A DNA stretch of 64,000 nucleotides from a virus, in IMG/VR virus record IMGVR_UViG_3300045284_000279, positions 5,761 through 69,760 of that record; one strand, written 5' to 3'. Made by a program: the position numbers and the translations under genes. Below the pieces are notes generated by a model. It did no database searches and was not told the DNA's origin. It was given only the letters and a program-made list of their open reading frames with translations. This document shows, piece after piece, positions 1,522 through 64,000 of the stretch; within the stretch, counting starts at the first letter, position 1, and the number at the start of each line of letters is the position of its first letter.

Positions 1522-1551
1522 TTTACGTTCACGCGGTTCGTTTACTAGAAT
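1522..1551 (+). promoter_or_regulatory. putative sigma70-type promoter
   Basis: TTTACG-N18-TAGAAT in an AT-rich intergenic gap upstream of GGAG RBS and ATG 1573. Confidence 0.4.
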
Positions 1552-1572
1552 TCCACCATCGGAGTAGCAGGC

Positions 1573-2210: not shown

Positions 2211-2786
2211 GTGAGTCGCTTGGCTCAGGACTTCCAGCGGCAGCTCGACGAGATGGCGAAGGACCGGCGCACGGTGCGTCGTAGCGAAAGAAGGAGTGGT
2301 TCAATGACCGAGGACGAGAGCGCAGGGAACGAGACGGCAGGCACCGAGATCGAACCGGATACCGAGACCAGCGGCGCCGACTACGCGAAGGCAACCTCGG
2401 AGACAGAAGGAGCAGCAGCAGACATGGCGAAGCAGCCGACGGCGAAGAAGCGCACGAAGAAGGCGTCCGGCGCGAAGGCGGCGAAGAAGGCGACCCTGAA
2501 GACGGCAAAGGCTCCGAAGGCGCCCAAGGCCGCGAAGGCACCCAAGGCCGAGAAGAAGAAGCCGTCGCACGACGGCGCAGGGTCGCGGACCGTGACGGCG
2601 CCGGCGAACCTGCCCGCCGCGGGATCGCTCAAGGTCGTCGGAGTCGAGCCCTACGGGTCGCGCTACGTCCGCGTCAACTTCGAGGACGAGAAGAGCGTGA
2701 TGTTCCTGCCCGTCAACCTCAGCCCGAGCGACACTATCGCGATGCGCGACAAGATGGTGAAGTTCCTGAGCGATCGTCTGTCGTGA
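2211..2786 (+). CDS. protein with histone H1-like Lys/Ala/Pro-rich segment
   Basis: GTG after AGGAGG; acidic N-part then AKKRTKKASGAKAAKK...KAPKAPKAAKAPKAEKKK; alternative starts at 2304 and 2424. Confidence 0.55.
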   Translation: MSRLAQDFQRQLDEMAKDRRTVRRSERRSGSMTEDESAGNETAGTEIEPDTETSGADYAKATSETEGAAADMAKQPTAKKRTKKASGAKAAKKATLKTAKAPKAPKAAKAPKAEKKKPSHDGAGSRTVTAPANLPAAGSLKVVGVEPYGSRYVRVNFEDEKSVMFLPVNLSPSDTIAMRDKMVKFLSDRLS

Positions 2787-5646: not shown

Positions 5647-6080
5647 AGCCTCTCGTCGTCGGCGAAGCGCCCGGTCGTCGTGGTGGCCCACCTCTCGCGG
5701 GCGACTGCGGCCAACGCCTCGCCGACTTCTACGGCGTGTCGTTGCGAGACTTCAAACGGACGTTCACGTGCGTGAACCTGCTGCGCGAGTGGCCAGGGTC
5801 CGCAGGGAAGGGATCGAGGTTCCCTCTCGCCGAGGCCAAGGTGCAGGCTGAGCGGATCGCAGCGCGACTGCCGTGGGGTCGCGTAGTGATCCTGCTCGGT
5901 CGTCGCGTGGCCTCAGCATTCGGAGTCAAGACGGACTATTTCAGGCGAGCGCGGATCGGGAAGTGCATCATGGTCTTCGTCGTGCCTCACCCGTCGCGCG
6001 TGAACAGGTGGTTCAACGACCCTGCGAACGTCGACTCGATGCGCGCGTTCATGCGAACTATGAAGCCGGTGTCGAGATGA
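5643..6080 (+). CDS. uracil-DNA glycosylase superfamily protein
   Basis: VVGEAPG (motif A), VILLGRRVA, VPHPS (motif B). Confidence 0.75.
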   Translation: MKPLVVGEAPGRRGGPPLAGDCGQRLADFYGVSLRDFKRTFTCVNLLREWPGSAGKGSRFPLAEAKVQAERIAARLPWGRVVILLGRRVASAFGVKTDYFRRARIGKCIMVFVVPHPSRVNRWFNDPANVDSMRAFMRTMKPVSR

Positions 6081-7051
6081 ACAGCGAAAACTTCAACGTC
6101 GTGTTTCCAGAGCGAAATGAGTTTGTCTCGATCGTAGAGCGAGCGCTGATGATGGCGAAGCATCCGATGAAGCCTCGCGAGCTTGCGCTGATCGTCTGGA
6201 AAGAATGGGGCGTGCAGGGAAAGTACATCGACGGCAAATACAAGAACCTCCAGAACCTCGAAGAGAGGATCAGGACTGCTGCGATATGTTCCGGCAAGTT
6301 AGGGTATGGGGGCCTCGGACGCAATTCTCAGGCGTATGTCTTCATGCGGTGGTGGTTTGCCGATGCAGGATTGTTCAACGATCAGCCTGAGCCGATCGCG
6401 ATAGAGGTGACGCGCGAGATCAGAGATTTGGCCATGCGAGACGCCGAGCGTAGAGCGCGCTTCTTGCAGGCTGGCAGTCGAGGTGTCGGCCGGCACTTGA
6501 GCGACGTAGTGTCTGGATTCATCTGCCAGTATGCCGTTCGGTGCTATATGGAAGAACGATGGCCGACGATCGTGCTTCCGCCTAGCAACGAACACGACTT
6601 CAAGCGGCCTGCTCCAGACGATCTGAGGGTCGTCAAGATATCCAAGAGGAAGCAGATCTTGGTTGACGTCACGTCGACTGCTAAGACTACAGGAGTGTTC
6701 GGACCTGTCGTAAAGGAAGTCAACGGCAGATCTGCCCACTTCCACGTGCTGACCTCTCCGGTGAGGAGCATGAGGAACGAGATCGTAAGGGTGCTCATCC
6801 ACGGATGGGTGAGCAGGGGCGAACTAGAGAAAGGCGTTTACGCCTGCGATGCGAGGAACTTCACTTCGCTCGAGGTGAGGCTCAACTGCATCGTGGCTGA
6901 CGTTGACTATCACGAGATGCGGCGTGTCGACGACCTCGCTCAAGCGCAAAGGAACGCTGAACTCGTACAGTCTGGCCGCAAGCTACCGACGCACCAGTCG
7001 AAGAAGAAAAACAAAAAGCCGACAGGTCCTCTAGCGATGATGTGGGATTGA
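6077..7051 (+). CDS. putative HTH + PD-(D/E)XK-like endonuclease
   Basis: SG...Q.AV...PDDL...LVDV.S...V.I.GW pattern resembles a degenerate restriction-endonuclease fold; visibly lower GC than flanks. Confidence 0.4.
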   Translation: MNSENFNVVFPERNEFVSIVERALMMAKHPMKPRELALIVWKEWGVQGKYIDGKYKNLQNLEERIRTAAICSGKLGYGGLGRNSQAYVFMRWWFADAGLFNDQPEPIAIEVTREIRDLAMRDAERRARFLQAGSRGVGRHLSDVVSGFICQYAVRCYMEERWPTIVLPPSNEHDFKRPAPDDLRVVKISKRKQILVDVTSTAKTTGVFGPVVKEVNGRSAHFHVLTSPVRSMRNEIVRVLIHGWVSRGELEKGVYACDARNFTSLEVRLNCIVADVDYHEMRRVDDLAQAQRNAELVQSGRKLPTHQSKKKNKKPTGPLAMMWD

Positions 7052-24329: not shown

Positions 24330-25775
24330 GTGCAACAAGCCGTCATCAGAGTCCTCGGAGCACTCGCCGATCGGTTGACGCTGGGCAAAGTCCTGGGCAC
24401 GACCTTCGGCGGAAAGCGCAACGTCGCCGAAGCGCTCGGCTACGCCTTGGAACTTGGAATGGGCGACTACCGCAATCGCTACGATCGCGGAGACGTTGCA
24501 GGGCGGATCGTGGACTTCTACCCGAAGTCGACGTGGCGCGGCGGCTGTCAGGTCTACGACTCCGAAGACCCGAACGAGGTCACGCCGTTCGAGGCCGCCG
24601 TCGAATTCATCGTCACGAAGCACGACCTGTGGTCTCGCTTACTCTCAGCTGACATCGTCTCAGGCATCGGCCGCTACTCCGTCCTCGTGCTCGGCGCGGA
24701 AGGCACGAACTGGAAACAGGAGTTGCCGACGATCAGCGGCCCCGAAGGCCTGCTGTACCTGTCGCCTCCCTACGGCGAAGACAAGGCCACGATCTCTCAG
24801 TGGGTGGAAGATCGGACCAACCCTCGCTACGCCAAGCCGCTGTTCTACTCGATCAAGTCGACGCGCGCAGACGGTGCCGCCAGCATCGCGCAGGACGTGC
24901 ACTGGTCTCGCGTCATCCACGTCGCCGACGTGAAGGGCGAAGACGACATCTTCGCTGAGCCTCGCCTCCGCAGGATCTGGAATCGCCTCGACGACCTCGA
25001 CAAGGTGGTTGGCGGAGGCTCAGAGGCATTCTGGCAGCGCGTCCACCGTGGGATGCAGGCCAACGTCGACAAGGAAGTCGCCGTCGCGATGGCCGGCCTG
25101 CCCGACGGCGGCAAGGCGATGAAGGACGACCTCGAGAAGCAGTTCGACGAGTACGTCCACGGATTCCGCCGCTACCTGCGGACGGCCGGCGTCGAGATTC
25201 AGGAATTCGGGACCGACGTCTCGAACTTCTCGAATCAGGTCGACGCGCTGATGACGATCATCGCCTGCGCCGCCCACGTGCCGAAGCGCATCCTGATGGG
25301 TACAGAGCGCGGCGAGCTGGCGAGCGGGCAGGACAAGGGCGAATTCGACGACGCCGTGCAGGGTCGTCGTGCGGGCTTCGGCGAGCGCGTCGTGCGGCAG
25401 TTCTTCGATCGGCTGATCTCGGTCGGGTGCCTGCCGGAACCTGCCGACGGCAGCTACGACGTCGCGTGGCCCGACATCGAAGAAGAGGACCAGGTCGGCA
25501 AGGCCGACATCACCGTCAAGATCGCCGACGCGAATCAGAAGCAGACGAGCGCAGGGCAGCCGGTCATCATGTCGTCGGCTGAGATCCGCGACATGGTGTA
25601 CGGTCTCGATCCGCTCGACGAGCTCGACGCGGCGATGCGGCAGGACGATCAGGCGCTCGCTGCCGCGGCAAAAAAAAAGTCACGCAACCGCGCGAGGGCT
25701 CAGGTCGTCGCCGCTCAGCGGCGCCTGTCCATCGTGCGACGAGTCGTCACGTCGCGAGGCTCCGTCGCGTCATGA
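24330..25775 (+). CDS. portal protein (DUF1073-type)
   Basis: A.RIVD.Y...TW, VHWSRVIH, IP.RILMG.ERGELAS.QD; follows TerL and precedes head genes. Confidence 0.85.
   Translation: MQQAVIRVLGALADRLTLGKVLGTTFGGKRNVAEALGYALELGMGDYRNRYDRGDVAGRIVDFYPKSTWRGGCQVYDSEDPNEVTPFEAAVEFIVTKHDLWSRLLSADIVSGIGRYSVLVLGAEGTNWKQELPTISGPEGLLYLSPPYGEDKATISQWVEDRTNPRYAKPLFYSIKSTRADGAASIAQDVHWSRVIHVADVKGEDDIFAEPRLRRIWNRLDDLDKVVGGGSEAFWQRVHRGMQANVDKEVAVAMAGLPDGGKAMKDDLEKQFDEYVHGFRRYLRTAGVEIQEFGTDVSNFSNQVDALMTIIACAAHVPKRILMGTERGELASGQDKGEFDDAVQGRRAGFGERVVRQFFDRLISVGCLPEPADGSYDVAWPDIEEEDQVGKADITVKIADANQKQTSAGQPVIMSSAEIRDMVYGLDPLDELDAAMRQDDQALAAAAKKKSRNRARAQVVAAQRRLSIVRRVVTSRGSVAS
25670..25679 (+). other. candidate -1 ribosomal frameshift site in portal (A AAA AAG)
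   Basis: GCA AAA AAA AAG in the portal frame; the -1 frame is stop-free into ORF 25772. Confidence 0.55.
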
Positions 25776-26020
25776 TCGAGACCTTCGCCTCGATCCGCGA
25801 CGGCGTCTCGCTGGCCGACATCGAAGCGGCCGTGAAGACCGGCAGCGTCGAACACGTCGTGGCAGTCTTCGACGGCCTCGCCGCCTTGCAGCCTCGCGCG
25901 GCAGGCGCCAGTCAGCGGTTCCTGTCAGGCGTAGCGATCGCGAACGTCGTCTCCGATGCGATGGCTGCTGGTTCATCGGCCGTGCCGCTCTGCGTGCCGA
26001 AGAGGCACGGCGCATCGTGA
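25772..26020 (+). CDS. head protein, probable N-terminal part of gpF-like head morphogenesis protein
   Basis: helical coding-like sequence between portal and gpF domain; ATGA/GTGA overlaps. Confidence 0.5.
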   Translation: MIETFASIRDGVSLADIEAAVKTGSVEHVVAVFDGLAALQPRAAGASQRFLSGVAIANVVSDAMAAGSSAVPLCVPKRHGAS

Positions 26021-45851: not shown

Positions 45852-46241
45852 ATGGCAACGCATGGAAAACAGACCGAAGGCGTGCTGGTTGCGCCGGACG
45901 CGTTCCTCGAGGAACACGACATCCAGTTCGCCGAGGTCTCACTGCCGGGCGGGAAGAAGATTCGCATCGGGTCACTCGACGCCGACACGATGATGGACTT
46001 CGTCTCGCTCGAAGGTCCGGAGAAGCGTCAGCGCATGCTCCGCATGATCGCGATGAGTCTCGTCGACGCGGAAGACGTGCGCGTCGGCCTCGACGAGCAG
46101 GGCGAGGTGAAGCCGGAGATCCTCGCCAAGCTCGGGAAGAAGGACGCGCGGACCATCGCGCGTCTGTCCGAAGCGATCATGATCCACAACGAGATGATCG
46201 CTGCACCGAAAGGCGACGACAGCGAAGCAAAAAAAGACTGA
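45852..46241 (+). CDS. tail assembly chaperone (gpG-like)
   Basis: lies between tube and tape measure; ends EAKKD at slippery site. Confidence 0.8.
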   Translation: MATHGKQTEGVLVAPDAFLEEHDIQFAEVSLPGGKKIRIGSLDADTMMDFVSLEGPEKRQRMLRMIAMSLVDAEDVRVGLDEQGEVKPEILAKLGKKDARTIARLSEAIMIHNEMIAAPKGDDSEAKKD

Positions 46242-46275
46242 GGCGGAACCCGACGCGCCTGTTCGCGTTCCGCCT
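46229..46275 (+). other. programmed -1 frameshift (A AAA AAA plus 9-bp hairpin)
   Basis: GCA AAA AAA GAC TGA; AGGCGGAAC (46241-46249) pairs with GTTCCGCCT (46267-46275); the -1 frame is open into 46310. Confidence 0.85.
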
Positions 46276-46561
46276 TGCCGCACACCTCGGGCAGGCGAAC
46301 CCGTTCGCCATGCTCCGAGGCATGCCGGCCTGGCTCTTGAGTGAGTGGCTGGCGTACGCAGAGCTTGAACCGTTCGGAGAATTCCGCGACGACGTGAGAG
46401 CAGCGATAATCGCATCGACGGTCGCGAACATGTTGAGAGGTCGGAAGCAAAAAGCCTTCAGCATTTCAGACTTCATGCTCAAGTTCGACGAGCCGAAGAA
46501 GCAGCAGAAGGACTGGCGCGTGATGAAGGCGCAGATGCGCGCCTTCTTCGATGGTAAATAG
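46235..46561 (+). CDS. tail assembly chaperone frameshift extension (gpT-like)
   Basis: RLFAFRLAAHLG...EWLAY..LEPFG..R.D.RAAII.S.VAN. Confidence 0.8.
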   Translation, partial: RLRRNPTRLFAFRLAAHLGQANPFAMLRGMPAWLLSEWLAYAELEPFGEFRDDVRAAIIASTVANMLRGRKQKAFSISDFMLKFDEPKKQQKDWRVMKAQMRAFFDGK

Positions 46562-58035: not shown

Positions 58036-60210
58036 ATGCGATTCAACGTGTTCGGCAACGCCGGAGCAGGGATCGACGAGACGATCTCGATCGACAAGTC
58101 TGCCGTGGCCAAGGGCAGCGGATCGTCCGTCGGTCCCTGTTGGTTGACGCCCGAGCGGTTGCTCTACCGCGATCAGCACGATGCGCTCGCCGTGTACGTG
58201 AAGACGACCGGCGCCTATGAGCTCGTCGATCCGCGCGGCGCGAACGACTTCAGGGCGAACGGCGGAGTCTTCGCCGCCTACCTCGATCGTCCGTCGCCGA
58301 TCGTCTACGGACCAAACTTCACGATCGCTGGCGCCTCGCTCGCCGACGTCGGTCCAGACGGTGCGATCGCCTACTGCCCACGACAACAGGACGGTGTGCC
58401 GATCGTCGTGCGCGACGGCGTCGAAGAGTGGACGCTGACGACTGAACCTGCTCGCGTCGTGCAACTGCTCGGCGGTCGACGTGCGATCTGGTTGGACGGT
58501 GCCGGCACGATCAGGGCGGTCGGCCTGCCGCAGCCGGTTCAGGTCGGACCTGCGAACGATCCGAGGGCGGCAGAGCTGAACGGCGTGCTCTACCTCCAAT
58601 ACTGGGTGATGCCGGACGGGCCGCTCGTCCTGCACCCGTGGCATACGACCTTGGGGAAGGCCCTCCATTCAGCCCCAGACGCGTTCAAGGCGGATCTGGC
58701 AGGCGTAAGCGGGCGCCTGCTCTCAGGCTGGTCCTCCGGTCAGGGAGAGCGTCCAGAGCAGGTCTTCACGACGAGCACGGATCCGGCCGAGCTAACGAAC
58801 GACCTGCAACCGAACGAATCGATTCCTGCGATCGGGCGCAGGATGTGGGTGTCGTGGTTCGTGGGCAGTCCGCAGGCCTCTGGCGGTTGGTATACCGACG
58901 TGCCGTGGCAGCGCACGCCCGGCAACTCTCGCATCACCGTCGGCGAACCGAACCTGTGGCAGGACGCACAGGATCGCGTCATCGGGATCTTCGTCGAAGG
59001 TCGCCCGTCGGATTCCAACTCGGACGACATCGATCGAGCGATTGACGCGGCCGCGCGCTTCTACAAGATTTCAGTCATGGGCTACTGGCCTCGTCGCGCG
59101 CAGTCGGTGCGCGTGCCGGTCGGCGCGAAGTGGATCGGCGTCGAGGTCTATTGGAAGCTCGGCGAATCACTCGCGCAGCTGGAAGCTGCGGCCGACTCGG
59201 CGATCGAGGCCTGTCGAATCCTCGACCTGCCGGTCGTGCTCATCCCGCAGGCCTTCACGTCGAACGACAGCCTCCAGAAAGACCTGCGACCGATCGTCGG
59301 TCTGACGGCGAAGCTCGCGCGCAAGCACGCCAACGTCGTCGGCCTTGCGCCGTTCAACGGCACTGGCCGCGACACAGGTCTGTTGTCCCTGCACGGCCAC
59401 CCCGAAGTCGAAGGCCTCTGGCGCTCGCTGCTCGCAGGCGTGCCCGGTCCACCGGAGATCGACTCGGCACCTGCTCCGCCCGTGGCGCCGACGGCGATGA
59501 TCGCGTCCTACGACGCGAGCGCCGACGTCGATCAGCCGGTGCACGCCAACGCGATCGTCTCGGGCGACGTGACGCGCTTGGTCTGGCGCTACAGGTTGCT
59601 CGGCACCATCTCGTGGGTCGCGGCAGGATCGGATACGGGGCTGTCGTTCACGTATCGCTTTCACGTGCCAGGCAGCTACGAGATCTCGCTGCGCGTCGAA
59701 GGTCCGGCCGGGCGTGCCGAGACGACGAGGCAGTGCCTCGTGCAGATCACGTCAGCTCCGATCGTGTCACCGTTTCCGTTGATTTACCCGTATAGAATTG
59801 GGGGCAGCATGCAGACCGAACGTGGAGGACTGCGAGGCGCACGCGGGAAGTTCGTGCGCCTCGATTCGACGAAGCCAGGCAAGGGATTGTTCGAGGGCTA
59901 TCCCGTGCTCGTCGACGCCGAAGACGCGACGGGCGACGCCGAGTGGGAGCTGTCGCAGCCGGACGGACGCTTCACGTTGACGCACGTGAAGACCGGCGCG
60001 ATCCTCGGGATGGATGCGACGCAGTTCAGCGCGGACCTCACCAAGCAGTACTACACGCGTCCGCCCGACAAACGCGGCGGGTACGAGTCGCCGCAGGTCG
60101 GTCGCCTGCCGAGCGGCACAGTGATCGCGTTCGTCGAATACGATTCGGACGAGCACGGCAACCCCGCGCACTTCCTCGCCGCGCCGCTCGTGTGGGAGAA
60201 GGCGTCGTGA
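58036..60210 (+). CDS. multidomain protein (propeller-like N-terminus, PKD-like Ig, C-terminal beta domain)
   Basis: F.Y.F..PG.YEISL.V.GP.G PKD motif after a Pro-rich linker. Confidence 0.55.
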   Translation: MRFNVFGNAGAGIDETISIDKSAVAKGSGSSVGPCWLTPERLLYRDQHDALAVYVKTTGAYELVDPRGANDFRANGGVFAAYLDRPSPIVYGPNFTIAGASLADVGPDGAIAYCPRQQDGVPIVVRDGVEEWTLTTEPARVVQLLGGRRAIWLDGAGTIRAVGLPQPVQVGPANDPRAAELNGVLYLQYWVMPDGPLVLHPWHTTLGKALHSAPDAFKADLAGVSGRLLSGWSSGQGERPEQVFTTSTDPAELTNDLQPNESIPAIGRRMWVSWFVGSPQASGGWYTDVPWQRTPGNSRITVGEPNLWQDAQDRVIGIFVEGRPSDSNSDDIDRAIDAAARFYKISVMGYWPRRAQSVRVPVGAKWIGVEVYWKLGESLAQLEAAADSAIEACRILDLPVVLIPQAFTSNDSLQKDLRPIVGLTAKLARKHANVVGLAPFNGTGRDTGLLSLHGHPEVEGLWRSLLAGVPGPPEIDSAPAPPVAPTAMIASYDASADVDQPVHANAIVSGDVTRLVWRYRLLGTISWVAAGSDTGLSFTYRFHVPGSYEISLRVEGPAGRAETTRQCLVQITSAPIVSPFPLIYPYRIGGSMQTERGGLRGARGKFVRLDSTKPGKGLFEGYPVLVDAEDATGDAEWELSQPDGRFTLTHVKTGAILGMDATQFSADLTKQYYTRPPDKRGGYESPQVGRLPSGTVIAFVEYDSDEHGNPAHFLAAPLVWEKAS

Positions 60211-61271
60211 GCCTCAGCGATACGGTGCCGCTCATTCGACCGTATCGGATCTCGGGCGGTCGTGGCGCAGCGAACTTCCCGTGGACGCCTGACCGTCGCA
60301 TCTGGCGCGACGCCGACGGTCAGCCCGTGCGCTGGAGAGGCTTGACGGGCTTCAAGGCCGGCGAGATCTTCAGCGGAGGCAACCTCGCGCGCCTCGCCGA
60401 TTGGCTCGGGCACTTCGACGACATGAACTACAACGTCGTCCGCCTCTTCGCCCACGCCGTCGGACCCGGGTGGGAAGTCGAAGGGTGGGAGACCGTTCCA
60501 GACGATGCCCTGATCGACTGCGTGAAGTGGTTCGGCGACCTCGGCTACGGCGTCGAATACGTGCTGCTCACCGACGACGCGTCGGCACGCATCCCGACAG
60601 CGCTGCGACAGATCGGTGCGTGCGTCTCGGCGAGGTTACTGCTGCCGAACCTCTTTCTCCAAGGCGGGAACGAGCCGACGACGCACAAGGCCATTGATAC
60701 GCAGGCGCTGCACCTCGCCCTGCGGGCGAGCGGCTTCAACTACTGCAGCGGAGACTTCGAGGATCCGACGCGGTGGTTCGGCAGCTACTTCACGGTGCAT
60801 ACGCCGCGCGACGGCGAGTGGCCGCGCAAGTCGAAAGACCTGATGGACTACTTCGGCGGCAACACCGGCACGACCGCGTCGGCCTTCAACGCGCCGGGCG
60901 TCGCCGACGAGCCGCAGCGTCCAGACGCAGCTGGCGCTCCGTCACCCGAAGCCAAGCGCCAGGACTTCTACGCCTACGCGGCGATTGCGTCGCTCTTCGG
61001 CGCCGGTGCCACCTTCCACTCGAAGCTGGCAGAGTACATCCAGATGCCGACGGAAGAAGACGTGGCCTGTGCGCAGTCGTTCTCCGACGGGCTGTCGGTC
61101 TTCCCTGCCGATGCGCCGAACGGTGCGTATCGTCGCATCGACGAGAACGGCGCGACCCTGCGAACCTACATCGTCGGGAACTACATGGTGCGTGCACGTC
61201 CGACGACGATGTCTGCTCCAGAGCCGGGGTGGCAGCCGCTCGACACGATGGGGATCTGCTGGCGGCGATGA
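60207..61271 (+). CDS. GH-A clan (GH5-like) TIM-barrel glycoside hydrolase
   Basis: YNVVRLF, GNEP (acid/base), H.PR, DEP (nucleophile), TFHS. Confidence 0.6.
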   Translation: MSLSDTVPLIRPYRISGGRGAANFPWTPDRRIWRDADGQPVRWRGLTGFKAGEIFSGGNLARLADWLGHFDDMNYNVVRLFAHAVGPGWEVEGWETVPDDALIDCVKWFGDLGYGVEYVLLTDDASARIPTALRQIGACVSARLLLPNLFLQGGNEPTTHKAIDTQALHLALRASGFNYCSGDFEDPTRWFGSYFTVHTPRDGEWPRKSKDLMDYFGGNTGTTASAFNAPGVADEPQRPDAAGAPSPEAKRQDFYAYAAIASLFGAGATFHSKLAEYIQMPTEEDVACAQSFSDGLSVFPADAPNGAYRRIDENGATLRTYIVGNYMVRARPTTMSAPEPGWQPLDTMGICWRR

Positions 61272-61869: not shown

Positions 61870-61882
61870 AGGAGGAGTGAGG

Positions 61883-62185
61883 ATGGGCAATCCGTTACTC
61901 GTCGAAGCGCTCGGCGCGATCCTGCGCCACTTCTTGAGCGCAGGTGCCGTGTGGTTCGTCGCGCACGGCATCTGGAAGTCGAGCGAGGCCGAGAACTACG
62001 TGTCGGGCCTCGCGCTGTTCCTGCTCGCCGTCGGCTGGTCGATCTGGCAGAAGTACGGCATGAGGTCGAAGCTCGTCGTCGCGCTCTCGACGGCATCGGC
62101 GATGACGGAGCAGGAAGCAGCGACGGCGAGTCGATCTCCGGTCGCACCTTCGGTGATGACGCCGAAGGATCAGGTTCCAAAGTGA
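61883..62185 (+). CDS. holin-like protein
   Basis: two TM helices, LRH.L...A...V..G and WSIWQK. Confidence 0.6.
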   Translation: MGNPLLVEALGAILRHFLSAGAVWFVAHGIWKSSEAENYVSGLALFLLAVGWSIWQKYGMRSKLVVALSTASAMTEQEAATASRSPVAPSVMTPKDQVPK

Positions 62186-62202: not shown

Positions 62203-62688
62203 ATGCGAAGAAGGAAGTTCACAGCCAACGGTGTCGCGGCGATGCTCGTCGCTGCAATGTTCTTGCCCGCGTGTGCGAGCAGCAACACGCCGCCGCAGAC
62301 GCAGGTCGCGCACTACACGTCGAACGTGCTCGACGCGGCGACGGAGTTGCAGAAGGGCATCACCGCCGCGACCGACGCGAAGGTGTTGCCGGTCGACGTC
62401 GCGCGCACGCTCACCGGCTACTCCGAGGTTATCTACGCCAAGAGCGGTCCACTGCTCGCCGCGCTGAAGGCCTACAACGCCACGGCGACAGGCGATGTGC
62501 TCCACGTCAAGAGTGCCGCCGACGTGCAGAAGTTGATCGGCGAGATCAACGCGACGGTCGGTCAACTTCTCGGCACAGCGATCCCGCAGGGTGCGCTCTC
62601 GCAGATCTCGCAACTGGTCGGAAACGTGATGAGCGCAGTCGGTGCCGTGCAGGCCGAAGTCGCGCGCGGACTCGGAGGTGGAAAGTGA
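62203..62688 (+). CDS. lipoprotein (spanin candidate)
   Basis: MRRRK...AMFLPA/C lipobox; helical. Confidence 0.55.
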   Translation: MRRRKFTANGVAAMLVAAMFLPACASSNTPPQTQVAHYTSNVLDAATELQKGITAATDAKVLPVDVARTLTGYSEVIYAKSGPLLAALKAYNATATGDVLHVKSAADVQKLIGEINATVGQLLGTAIPQGALSQISQLVGNVMSAVGAVQAEVARGLGGGK

Positions 62689-62957
62689 CGCCGCCCAAGG
62701 AACCCACGAAGGTCGAGAGCGCGCTTGCTGATGCGAACGCGATACTCGCGCAGTTCATTCCGCTCGTCGGCCTGATCGGCACGTCGTCGCGTGCCGTGAT
62801 AGCGCTGCTGCGCGCGCACGGCAAGGTCGGCGAGGCCGAAGCCTTCGAGGCGGAGCTGGCGGCTGCAGAGGCGTCGCGCGCGAAGCTCGGTGACGCGATC
62901 GCCGACTTCCACAGGAAGTACGACGCTGGCAGGACGGAACCGCCGGCGCAGGAGTAA
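62685..62957 (+). CDS. hypothetical protein
   Basis: GGAGG RBS, GTGA overlap; last gene of the late operon. Confidence 0.5.
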   Translation: MTPPKEPTKVESALADANAILAQFIPLVGLIGTSSRAVIALLRAHGKVGEAEAFEAELAAAEASRAKLGDAIADFHRKYDAGRTEPPAQE

Positions 62958-63092
62958 AAGAGCGGGCCTGCGGGAAGTCCTGCCGCAGGCCTGCCCGGCT
63001 CCCTGTAAGACGGCCTTCCGTGAGCTCCGCCAGAACCGCGTGAATTCGAGGCTGTTTTCGCGAGGTCGATCCGACTGACTTTACTTCGCAAA

Positions 63093-63141
63093 GCGGCTCT
63101 AAACTGTTGCAATTCGATAGTTTAGAGCCGCACGTTTTTTT
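63093..63141 (+). terminator. intrinsic terminator-like hairpin
   Basis: perfect 13-bp inverted repeat GCGGCTCTAAACT / AGTTTAGAGCCGC followed by ACG and T7. Confidence 0.7.
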
Positions 63142-63143
63142 CC

Positions 63144-63174
63144 TTTACACTTGAGACCGCATCTATATTAAGAT
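63144..63174 (+). promoter_or_regulatory. putative sigma70-type promoter
   Basis: TTTACA followed by TATATT/TAAGAT in the most AT-rich patch; spacing non-ideal. Confidence 0.45.
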
Positions 63175-63179
63175 GGTCA

Positions 63180-63880
63180 TCACGGCGGCGTTCGAAGGAA
63201 GACCAAAGCGGGCTCGTTGAAAATTGAATCAGGACCTGGCCAGCTGAAAGGTGCTCTCGGGCAGGCGACCTGATAACGGACGGGGCGGCAGGGTAAGACC
63301 GGTCCCGTACGACGCTCGCGGCTCTCGGGTCAACCCACCAGCTTTGCTCCTGCAAAGCGCGACCCTACGCAGGCCGCATCCACCCCAACAGGTCAAAGGC
63401 TAAGCCGCCGCAAGGCGGTCGAAGGCACGAAGGGCAACTTCGCTGGGGTCATCAGGCACGAATCGAATCCGCAGGACTAGCAATCGAACGCCGCAAGGCA
63501 GCAGTCCGGCGCAGGTCGATTCGGGAGACTGGTGACCAGCAAGCCAAGGCGCTCGCACGAATCGTGACCGAGGAAGCTCTGATCGACAGCGGGCAGGATG
63601 GCGCGCCGTAAGACGGTGACATGACGTGAGCGGACAACGACGAACGCAGGCGAGGGAGCCTGCCAAACGGGACGACATCTGCACGAAAGGACGGTCGGAC
63701 CTGCAACGCGGACGGCGATGATCATGCCGATGCGTTCGTCGAAGAAAAGTAAGAGCTGAAACGAGCCGGGCGCGCGAAAGCCCGCCCGGACGTTCAGCAA
63801 AGGATTGCGCAGGCGCAGGTCGCCGTCGAATCCTTTGCCGAGCGGTCAACCCAAACCGCGGCCGTTGCGCCGCACGAAGC
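63180..63880 (+). ncRNA. candidate large structured non-coding RNA (~700 nt)
   Basis: no + strand ORF >=60 aa; many nested stems and GNRA tetraloops (see findings); family not recognised. Confidence 0.6.
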
Positions 63881-63890
63881 GAGGGTCACG

Positions 63891-64000
63891 ATGAAGAAGC
63901 TGGTTCACGCGGTCGCGCTGTTCTGCTCGCTGTTCTGCCATCACCACTCAGTCGAGGTTCACGTGGACTTCGAGCAGGCCTTCAACCTCCGCAGCGCGCA
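63891..64000 (+). CDS. partial CDS (runs off window)
   Basis: GAGGG RBS, ATG, MKKLVHAVALFCSLFCHH... Confidence 0.4.
   Translation, partial: MKKLVHAVALFCSLFCHHHSVEVHVDFEQAFNLRSA

What the first reader, a model, noticed from the sequence alone, without database searches (positions are those of the whole stretch)
63180..63880. Candidate ~700-nt highly structured phage ncRNA
Seen: in an otherwise gap-free genome, 700 nt with no + strand ORF follow a terminator and an AT-rich promoter-like element. The stretch is packed with nested stems: ATCAGG/CCTGAT (63228/63269), GGGTC/GACCC enclosing GCTTTGC/GCAAAGC (63341-63358), ACCCCA/TGGGGT (63382/63444) enclosing GCCGCC-GCAA-GGCGGT, CGAATCGA/TCGATTCG (63459/63516) enclosing GGACT/AGTCC and GCC-GCAA-GGC, CGACGAACGCA/TGCGTTCGTCG (63638/63731), GCTGAA/TTCAGC enclosing CCGGGCG.GC-GAAA-GC.CGCCCGG, and GCAAAGGATT/AATCCTTTGC (63797/63829). 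GNRA loops and A-rich joiners indicate + strand RNA. Known: phages carry large RNAs such as GOLLD and ROOL of similar size. Inference: a member of such a class or a new one; I do not see RNase P, tmRNA or intron signatures.
Basis: partly seen in the sequence, partly recalled or inferred. Interest (0 to 1): 0.85.

Follow-up and report, generated by a model that had tools for sequence, protein, structure and literature searches.

The report
Orphan long noncoding leader in phage
Behind the lysis genes of an uncultured soil phage lies about 710 bases that encode no protein and are probably transcribed as a partly folded leader RNA in front of the next gene, but no relative could be found, so it remains an unproven candidate.

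Summary
The stretch is real and non-coding. No ORF in it has this genome's coding signature. A strong terminator and a promoter-like element precede it.

"Highly structured" is only half true. Over the full length the + strand gives z -2.1, with 3 of 100 shuffles folding as well. Two parts fold clearly better than shuffles: 63376-63535 (z -3.2) and 63630-63845 (z -3.6). One 89-nt hairpin reaches z -5.0. The first 200 nt and the 63530-63640 linker do not differ from shuffles. Several coding regions of this GC-rich genome are locally as stable.

It matches no Rfam family, so it is not GOLLD or ROOL by that test. I found no homologue in any collection I could reach, so covariation could not be tested.

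There is no terminator between it and the next gene. A distant relative has the same promoter type at this junction but only a 45-nt leader.

My best reading, at about 0.45, is a lineage-specific, purine-rich 5' leader acting in cis. A stand-alone large ncRNA remains possible. Interest is modest.

The parts
63093..63141 (+). Intrinsic terminator closing the late (lysis) operon: 17-pair stem-loop 63093-63131, then ACG and T7 (63135-63141)
   Evidence: Terminator scan; local 200-nt window z -4.66; T7 position
63144..63174 (+). Promoter-like element P3: TTTACA (63144-63149), 19-nt spacer, TAAGAT (63169-63174). Inferred transcription start about 63179-63183
   Evidence: Same hexamer type as two + strand sites directly in front of genes (contig 445; window 1522). 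Relative L034 has TTGACG-N18-TAAGAT at the same junction. The stricter consensus scan did not list it, probably because of the 19-nt spacer
63180..63375 (+). 5' part of the leader, purine-rich, with no fold beyond chance
   Evidence: z +0.06, 105 of 200 shuffles as stable
63382..63449 (+). Domain B: closing helix ACCCCA/TGGGGT around three hairpins, among them GCCGCC-GCAA-GGCGGT (63404-63419) and a hairpin whose loop shows GCACGAA (63425)
   Evidence: Fold of 63376-63535: z -3.21 on +, -1.15 on minus
63448..63536 (+). Domain C: 89-nt irregular hairpin (8 + 8 + 3 + 5 + 2 + 3 pairs) capped by GCC-GCAA-GGC. It is the best-defined element
   Evidence: z -5.01, 0 of 200 shuffles as stable, MFE frequency 0.42
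63537..63637 (+). Linker with no fold beyond chance. Holds the third GCACGAA (63555) and ATCGTGACC (63561-63569), which is complementary to GGTCACGAT across the start codon (63884-63892)
   Evidence: z +1.13; the 9-nt complement is at chance level (E 2.4); positions
63638..63741 (+). Domain D: 11-bp closing helix around three hairpins. The middle one has the 8-nt loop GCACGAAA (63681)
   Evidence: Fold of 63630-63845: z -3.60 on +, -2.94 on minus. Small hairpin z -1.92
63742..63756 (+). A-rich single-stranded joiner AAGAAAAGTAAGAGC, five A-purine-N triplets
   Evidence: Unpaired in the MFE and centroid; position. Any Hfq-type binding is my inference only
63755..63838 (+). Hairpins E (63755-63798, GAAA loop) and F (63797-63838, 10-bp base)
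   Evidence: Windows 63751-63850 are among the 40 most stable of 12,784 genome windows
63860..63887 (+). Terminal hairpin GGCC-G-UUGC / GCGA-G-GGUC. Its 10-nt loop holds the fifth GCACGAA (63872). Its 3' arm holds the Shine-Dalgarno GAGGG (63881-63885) of the next gene
   Evidence: MFE and centroid agree, frequency 0.56, but z is only -0.29 (70 of 200 shuffles)
63891..64000 (+). Start of the downstream gene (MKKLVHAVALFCSLFC..., signal-peptide-like), cut by the end of the record
   Evidence: ORF list; translation. The public run's contig goes on 1838 nt further

Best explanation
The stretch is a lineage-specific untranslated 5' leader of about 710 nt. It belongs to the transcription unit that begins just behind the terminator of the lysis operon.

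Proposed course of events:
1. Host RNA polymerase starts at the sigma-70-like element P3 (63144-63174).
2. It transcribes the purine-rich leader.
3. It runs without a terminator into the gene that starts at 63891.

The 3' two-thirds of the leader fold into a string of separately closed stem-loop domains: B, C, D, E, F and a terminal hairpin. It does not look like one globular RNA.

The last hairpin holds the ribosome-binding site in its 3' arm. The 7-mer GCACGAA recurs five times. Three copies lie in predicted hairpin loops, and the last lies 2 nt from the Shine-Dalgarno.

The role I propose is in cis: setting translation of the first gene, and possibly the stability or elongation of the transcript. 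A purine-rich, U-poor, folded leader would offer few Rho or RNase E entry sites. GCACGAA would then be a candidate binding site for a regulator.

Shown here: non-coding status, terminator, promoter-like match, absence of a terminator before the gene, strand asymmetry, and local fold stability. Inferred: transcription itself, every base pair, and any regulatory role.
For: - Non-coding. GC3 is 0.53-0.72 in all 8 ORFs against 0.73-0.94 in genes. Eight stop-free frames gave no family at the default threshold (E<=0.001) in Pfam or PHROGs; the only matches at E<=1 were two weak ones, E 0.09 and 0.34. The two big protein libraries gave no real hit.
- Terminator, then promoter. P3 shares its hexamers with two + strand sites directly upstream of genes. 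The loose pattern gave 4 matches on + and 0 on minus, against 0.32 expected in shuffles.
- Relative L034 has a hairpin, TTGACG-N18-TAAGAT and a 45-nt leader at the same junction after its lysis genes.
- No terminator-like site on + between 63180 and 63890.
- A good SD and ATG at 63881-63893, followed by a signal-peptide-like start.
- Fold. Domains B-C z -3.21, C alone -5.01, D-F -3.60. 7 of the 40 most stable 90-nt windows of the genome lie in 62900-63900.
- Strand. A 24.6% against T 13.4%. GNRA hairpins 5 on +, 1 on minus. Domains B-C on minus give only z -1.15.
- GCACGAA. 5 of the 21 + strand copies in the 64-kb window lie in these 711 nt. Any 7-mer reaches 5 copies in only 19 of 2000 shuffles.
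Against: - There is no evidence of transcription. No RNA run holds the stretch.
- P3 has a 19-nt spacer and was not listed by the stricter promoter scan.
- The SD hairpin is no more stable than shuffles (z -0.29).
- The first 200 nt and the 63530-63640 linker show no fold.
- As a roughly 700-nt block, the stretch ranks only 8th on the + strand for composition-adjusted local stability. The capsid gene and others rank higher.
- 16 of 175 genome windows also have some 7-mer in 5 or more copies.
- There is no homologue, hence no covariation.
- The one syntenic relative (L034) manages with a 45-nt leader. The 700 nt are therefore not needed for this junction in general, and could be an insertion without function.
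Confidence: 0.45

Rival explanations
1. It is a stand-alone, trans-acting large non-coding RNA. This could be a new class, functionally akin to GOLLD, ROOL or the ICP1 RNA. It would be made from P3 and released by processing. Its loop-displayed GCACGAA repeats and GNRA loops would serve as binding or assembly surfaces, for example as a decoy for a host factor.
For: - Size, phage context and position beside the lysis genes recall the roughly 800-nt abundant ICP1 ncRNA next to its lysis cluster (PMC7567579, passages read).
- Several independently closed domains, with z -3.2 to -5.0.
- More GNRA hairpins on + than in any of 88 genome windows.
- Three of five GCACGAA copies lie in predicted loops.
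This is a lead only and was not checked.
Against: - It has no terminator of its own.
- No Rfam match and no tRNA nearby.
- About half of the length has no fold beyond chance.
- No homologue in 75 syntenic loci, 2 related phage records, 802 Acidobacteriota genomes, INPHARED or IMG/VR pattern scans.
Confidence: 0.2
2. It is a DNA-level element at the seam between the late and the next module. Candidates are an attachment site (attP) with arm-type repeats, an origin or packaging site, or simply a mosaic recombination joint. On this reading the hairpins and the repeated 7-mer act as DNA.
For: - A relative (L025, GH protein 44% identical) carries a tyrosine integrase on the minus strand about 1.3 kb after its lysis genes. 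This seam can therefore hold an integration module.
- Five direct copies of one 7-mer recall arm-type integrase sites (recalled from lambda attP, not tested).
- The public run's assembly graph breaks inside the stretch at 63253-63281, as it would at a strain-variable joint.
- Perfect hairpins D-F fold almost as well on the minus strand (z -2.94), as DNA palindromes would.
Against: - No PF00589 integrase in the 69.76-kb record, although about 7% of the genome is missing.
- No tRNA or tRNA fragment.
- No long exact match to any of 802 Acidobacteriota genomes. The best were 28-31 nt at 93-94%, not at tRNA genes.
- Strong A>T asymmetry and the + bias of GNRA loops are not expected of a DNA site.
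- No AT-rich unwinding region or iterons beyond the 7-mer.
Confidence: 0.12
3. It is a functionless spacer: a decayed gene or inserted junk that happens to lie between a promoter and a gene.
For: - It is an orphan with no homologue anywhere I searched.
- The syntenic relative L034 has only a 45-nt leader.
- The overall fold is only modestly better than shuffles (3 of 100) and is not exceptional within this genome.
- Purine-rich strands also occur in coding DNA here. The gene at 2305-2786 has AT skew 0.55.
Against: - No trace of protein similarity in any frame, and no residual codon periodicity.
- Phage genomes are under packaging constraint.
- Two adjacent domains at z -3.2 and -3.6 plus the GNRA excess on one strand would have to be coincidence.
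Confidence: 0.13

Closest known systems
GOLLD (Rfam RF01998) and ROOL (RF03087) large ornate RNAs of phages and prophages
   Same: A phage-borne, protein-free stretch of similar length (ROOL averages 581 nt; PMC5737381, passages read), with many stems and GNRA loops.
   Different: No match to either covariance model, even at E<=10. No tRNA nearby. [quoted passage not shown] It has no family and no terminator of its own. The host range differs: a GC-rich soil phage, probably of Acidobacteriota.
The roughly 800-nt abundant non-coding transcript of Vibrio phage ICP1 beside its lysis cluster (Barth et al. 2020, PMC7567579; passages read)
   Same: A long ORF-free space next to the lysis genes of a phage, of comparable length, with unknown function and no tRNA nearby.
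   Different: ICP1's RNA is shown by RNA-seq to be the phage's most abundant transcript. Here nothing is known about expression. I saw no sequence relation, and INPHARED phages gave no match.
Cis-acting leader RNAs of phage early operons: HK022 put RNA and lambda nut sites (PMC9378689, abstract start seen in the listing; lambda details recalled)
   Same: Folded RNA elements placed between an early-type promoter and the first gene, acting on the transcribing complex or on the transcript itself.
   Different: As I recall, put and nut are short (tens of nt). Here there are 710 nt with at least five domains. No sequence or model comparison was possible. An antitermination role is pure inference.
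Moron-type units (terminator, own promoter, one gene) behind phage late operons (recalled, not looked up)
   Same: A terminator, then a sigma-70-like promoter, then a gene for a secreted or membrane protein, directly after the lysis cassette.
   Different: As I recall, morons have short leaders and often a deviant base composition. Here the leader is 710 nt long, and the gene fragment has the genome's own GC3.

Membership tests
GOLLD RNA (RF01998) | Match to the Rfam covariance model at or above its gathering score | tested here: not met
   0 of 4227 families matched at gathering on the whole window. At E<=10 on 62900-64000 there were 4 sub-threshold matches to unrelated families, all within 63079-63188.
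GOLLD / ROOL | Frequent location beside tRNA genes, in phages or prophages | tested here: not met
   The phage context is met, since this is a virus record. However, ARAGORN finds 0 tRNA genes in the 64-kb window. This feature is frequent in the families, not obligatory (PMC5737381).
ROOL RNA (RF03087) | [quoted passage not shown] | tested here: not met
   No model match. The architecture cannot be compared without an alignment. The single-sequence folds show separate domains, with two three-hairpin junctions.
Other catalogued structured RNAs (RNase P, tmRNA, group I/II introns, riboswitches, C4 antisense RNA) | Match to the Rfam model or ARAGORN tmRNA call | tested here: not met
Cis-acting 5' leader (untranslated region of the downstream gene) | Promoter upstream, and no terminator between the element and the start codon | tested here: met
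   Promoter-like P3 is met at the consensus level only (not listed by the stricter scan). No + strand terminator-like site lies in 63180-63890. SD and ATG are at 63881-63893.
Cis-acting 5' leader | Ribosome-binding site involved in a regulated structure | tested here: inconclusive
   The hairpin 63860-63887 holds the SD in its 3' arm (MFE equals centroid, frequency 0.56), but z is -0.29.
Any structured RNA family | Base pairs kept by compensatory changes among homologues | not testable with these tools
Phage attachment site (attP) | Adjacent integrase gene, and a core identical to a host site (often the 3' end of a tRNA) | tested here: not met
   No PF00589 match in the 69.76-kb record, but the record is only 93% complete. 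No tRNA-like piece. No long exact host match in the 802 Acidobacteriota genomes searched.

The most novel reading that the evidence does not exclude
The stretch encodes a new class of large phage RNA, about 500-700 nt. It would be made at once from a host-type promoter and processed from the leader. Its separately closed domains would display a repeated loop motif (GCACGAA) and GNRA loops. Through these it would bind and titrate a host or phage factor, or self-assemble. This would be a soil-phage, GC-rich counterpart of the unexplained GOLLD, ROOL and ICP1 RNAs.
Probability: 0.12. Interest if true: 0.7.

Novelty: new member of a known kind. Interest (0 to 1): 0.3.

Why it matters
Long protein-free transcripts keep turning up in phages, and none has an established function. 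A 710-nt leader or RNA placed at the seam between the late genes and the next module of an uncultured soil phage would add a GC-rich example from a poorly known virus-host system. The host is probably Acidobacteriota.

If the five loop or linker copies of one 7-mer and the ribosome-site hairpin are real, the element would be a compact model for RNA-level control of a phage gene.

As it stands, the value is limited. It is a single sequence without relatives, without expression data, and with fold statistics that are good for only half of its length. The practical lesson for the scan is that hand-found stems are common by chance in a 64% GC genome and need genome-matched controls.

Tried and rejected
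Known families. Rfam found nothing at gathering on the whole window or at E<=10 on 62900-64000. ARAGORN found nothing.

Coding readings.
- Eight stop-free frames against Pfam and PHROGs gave only two weak matches, E 0.09 and 0.34.
- The minus-strand 149-aa ORF against the 5.8-billion library gave none at E<=0.1.
- The + 104-aa frame against 1.84 billion representatives gave 3 hits. The two I aligned (P0058, P0059) are tandem-repeat proteins whose scores are sums of weak repeats. P0060 (E 1.9e-4, 6 stretches) was not aligned.
- Stop-codon recoding is rejected. Real genes here end in TGA, and there is no codon periodicity.

Homologue hunts, all negative.
- INPHARED by blastn.
- nhmmer and blastn on 75 loci around homologues of the neighbouring glycosidase-like protein. 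One weak nhmmer hit in L014, E 0.19 then 0.41.
- 3 Acidobacteriota MAGs: only matches of 17-36 nt.
- 401 genomes of the phylum: 2 with 28-31-nt matches, neither at a tRNA gene, read as chance.
- 401 genomes of one order: 0.
- Lipoprotein query: 0 of 401.
- Capsid relatives G404 and G407 share only head and tail genes and have no RNA match.
- Single-sequence covariance models R1 and R2: best foreign scores 17.6 and 14.3 bits.
- IMG/VR pattern scans: 118 loci with three spaced GCACGAA, none similar by nhmmer. Two more specific patterns gave 0 hits.
- ERF and DnaN queries found no close relative in IMG/VR.
- The scan's own index held no look-alike.

Expression. No RNA holder is listed. One DNA run of a soil metagenome holds the stretch. 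Its contigs cover it without differences and continue past the window end.

Other ideas dropped.
- DGR template or other repeat of the window: no copy.
- Tandem repeats or iterons: none in the stretch.
- Antisense targets in the phage's own genome: only 13-15-nt chance matches.
- GGA/CsrA-type sponge and tRNA-like modules: considered by eye only, nothing beyond composition.
- Group II domain V likeness of hairpin E: rejected by eye and by Rfam.

Not seen. Supplements of papers were not opened. The consensus drawings of ROOL and GOLLD are in figures and supplements that I could not see.

Full report
Where it lies. The window is bases 5761-69760 of a 69,760-nt linear virus record, estimated 93% complete. 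The one public run that holds the stretch is a soil metagenome. The finding sits 120 nt from the end of the record.

Upstream is a lysis cassette:
- a holin of the Pam3 gp28 family at 61877-62185 (PF23987, E 1.8e-9);
- a lipoprotein-like gene ending at 62688;
- a 90-codon gene at 62685-62957.

Before these lies a 354-aa protein (60207-61271). Its relatives occur in many soil viral contigs and in Acidobacteriota MAGs, which hints at the host. The early genes (ERF-like and DnaN-like by my reading of the translations, no family search run) are at the other end of the record.

The observation. A 17-pair terminator hairpin at 63093-63131 is followed by T7. Next comes TTTACA-N19-TAAGAT at 63144-63174.

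A loose search for this hexamer pair in the whole record gave 4 matches. All were on the + strand, against 0.32 expected in shuffles. Two of them, both TTTACG-N18-TAGAAT, lie directly in front of genes. The stricter built-in scan did not list P3, presumably because of its 19-nt spacer.

A distant relative, L034, has a neighbouring protein 42% identical and a lipoprotein 23% identical at the same place. Right after its lysis genes it has a hairpin, TTGACG-N18-TAAGAT, and then only about 45 nt before the next ATG. So a host-type promoter at this seam looks real. The long stretch behind it is peculiar to this phage.

Non-coding status. Real genes of this genome have GC3 of 0.73-0.94 and GC2 near 0.5. 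All eight ORFs in the stretch have GC3 of 0.53-0.72 and arginine-rich nonsense translations. The frame plot is flat from 63000 to about 63750. Pfam, PHROGs and both large protein libraries gave nothing meaningful. Of the three library hits, the two that I aligned were tandem-repeat proteins that add up weak repeats; the third (P0060) was not checked. The gene at 63891 has a good SD (GAGGG, 5 nt spacer), a signal-peptide-like start, and the genome's GC3.

How structured is it? The whole 711 nt gives z -2.84 with the tool's 20 shuffles. With 100 shuffles it gives z -2.14, and 3 shuffles fold at least as well. The minus strand gives -1.24.

Part by part, with 200 shuffles each:
- 63180-63375: z +0.06;
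- 63376-63535: z -3.21 on +, -1.15 on minus;
- the 89-nt hairpin 63448-63536: z -5.01, with no shuffle as stable;
- 63530-63640: z +1.13;
- 63630-63845: z -3.60 on +, -2.94 on minus.

I chose these boundaries after seeing the fold, which flatters the values.

Genome-matched controls temper the picture.
- Arbitrary 200-nt windows of coding DNA average z -0.37, sd 1.13. Two of 65 reach -3.2 or lower.
- 22 of 88 same-sized windows have as many perfect stems of 8 bp or more. Only 1 of 88 has an 11-bp stem.
- In a scan of 12,784 90-nt windows, 7 of the 40 most stable lie in 62900-63900.
- As a roughly 700-nt block, however, the region ranks only 8th on the + strand, behind the capsid gene and others.

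So about 375 nt, domains B-C and D-F, fold better than chance. The rest does not. Thermodynamics alone cannot carry the claim in this 64% GC genome.

Strand and motifs. The + strand has A 24.6% and T 13.4%. Its AT skew of 0.3-0.46 is the highest in the window apart from a Lys/Ala/Pro-rich gene. GNRA-capped hairpins number 5 on + and 1 on minus. No other window of 88 exceeds 4. These signals favour a + strand RNA.

The 7-mer GCACGAA occurs five times: 63425, 63456, 63555, 63681 and 63872. There are 16 copies in the other 63.3 kb. Some 7-mer reaches 5 copies in 19 of 2000 shuffles, but also in 16 of 175 natural windows. In the predicted folds three copies lie in hairpin loops. The last lies in the loop of a hairpin whose 3' arm holds the SD. 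That hairpin is not unusually stable (z -0.29).

What it is not. No Rfam family matches, and there is no tRNA or tmRNA. It is therefore not GOLLD, ROOL, RNase P, an intron or a riboswitch by the available tests. There is no repeat of it elsewhere in the window, which argues against a DGR-type template, and no tandem repeats.

Relatives. I could not find any. The searches are listed under Tried and rejected. The main ones were: 75 loci around homologues of the neighbouring gene, two capsid-related phage records, 802 Acidobacteriota genomes, INPHARED, five IMG/VR scans, and two single-sequence covariance models. Covariation, the decisive computational test, was therefore impossible. No RNA run is listed.

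Reading. No terminator-like site lies on the + strand between 63180 and the ATG. Any transcript from P3 therefore runs into the gene, and the stretch is at least a 5' leader. I take that as the base case, at 0.45. It would be a lineage-specific, purine-rich, partly folded leader that acts in cis, through ribosome-site access and perhaps transcript stability or elongation.

A processed, trans-acting large RNA (0.2) is the more exciting alternative and is not excluded. The closest published parallel is the abundant roughly 800-nt RNA beside the lysis cluster of phage ICP1 (PMC7567579, passages read).

A DNA-level role at the module seam (0.12) is kept alive by two things. Relative L025 carries an integrase after its lysis genes. 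The assembly graph also breaks at 63253-63281. Against it, the record has no integrase, and the strand asymmetry argues for RNA.

Functionless spacer or decayed gene: 0.13.

I could not compare the sequences and use it only as a lead.

Verdict. This is a real, orphan, non-coding stretch that is probably transcribed. It is structured in part, unclassifiable at present, and of modest interest until relatives or transcripts are found.

Noticed in passing
contig 445-478 (L087), window 1522-1555, window 63144-63174; L034 8376-8405: A shared host-type promoter pattern, TTTAC(G/A) or TTGACG, then 18-19 nt, then TA(G/A)(A/G)AT. It occurs on the + strand in front of genes of this phage, and in a distant relative at the seam after its lysis genes.
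   Followed up: partly
window 63185-63195 and 63484-63494: A perfect 11-nt complement between the probable 5' end of the transcript and the apical internal loop and GCAA hairpin of domain C. It could be a long-range or pseudoknot pairing. It is not used in the MFE and its significance is unclear.
   Followed up: no
window 63253-63281 and beyond 64000: The contigs of the one public run that holds the phage break with a 29-nt overlap inside the stretch. One contig continues 1838 nt past the end of the record, so the missing downstream sequence exists in public data.
   Followed up: no
window 60207-61271: A 354-aa protein with no Pfam hit but 56 relatives. It has an invariant N-E-P and several His/Asp/Glu columns, which looks glycosidase-like (from memory, not tested). 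It is widespread in soil viral contigs and present in Acidobacteriota MAGs (52% identity over a partial match, query residues 253-359, in L074). This hints at the host.
   Followed up: partly
L025 8500-9720 (minus strand): A relative carries a tyrosine integrase (PF00589, E 3.8e-12) about 1.3 kb after its lysis genes. The window's own 69.76-kb record has no PF00589 match, so its lifestyle is undecided.
   Followed up: partly
window about 6077-7051: A gene of about 325 codons (starting MNSENFNV...) in a 1.2-kb patch of lower G+C (0.56) among the early genes. It may be a horizontally acquired insert.
   Followed up: no
window 2305-2786: A Lys/Ala/Pro-rich, histone-H1-like protein gene. Its purine-rich strand gives the highest AT skew of the window (0.55). 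This shows that skew alone does not mark RNA genes.
   Followed up: no
window 5831-5920, 25731-25840, 46241-46330, 58051-58140: The most stable 90-nt local folds of the genome after correction for composition lie inside or between protein genes. 46241-46330 is stable on both strands.
   Followed up: no
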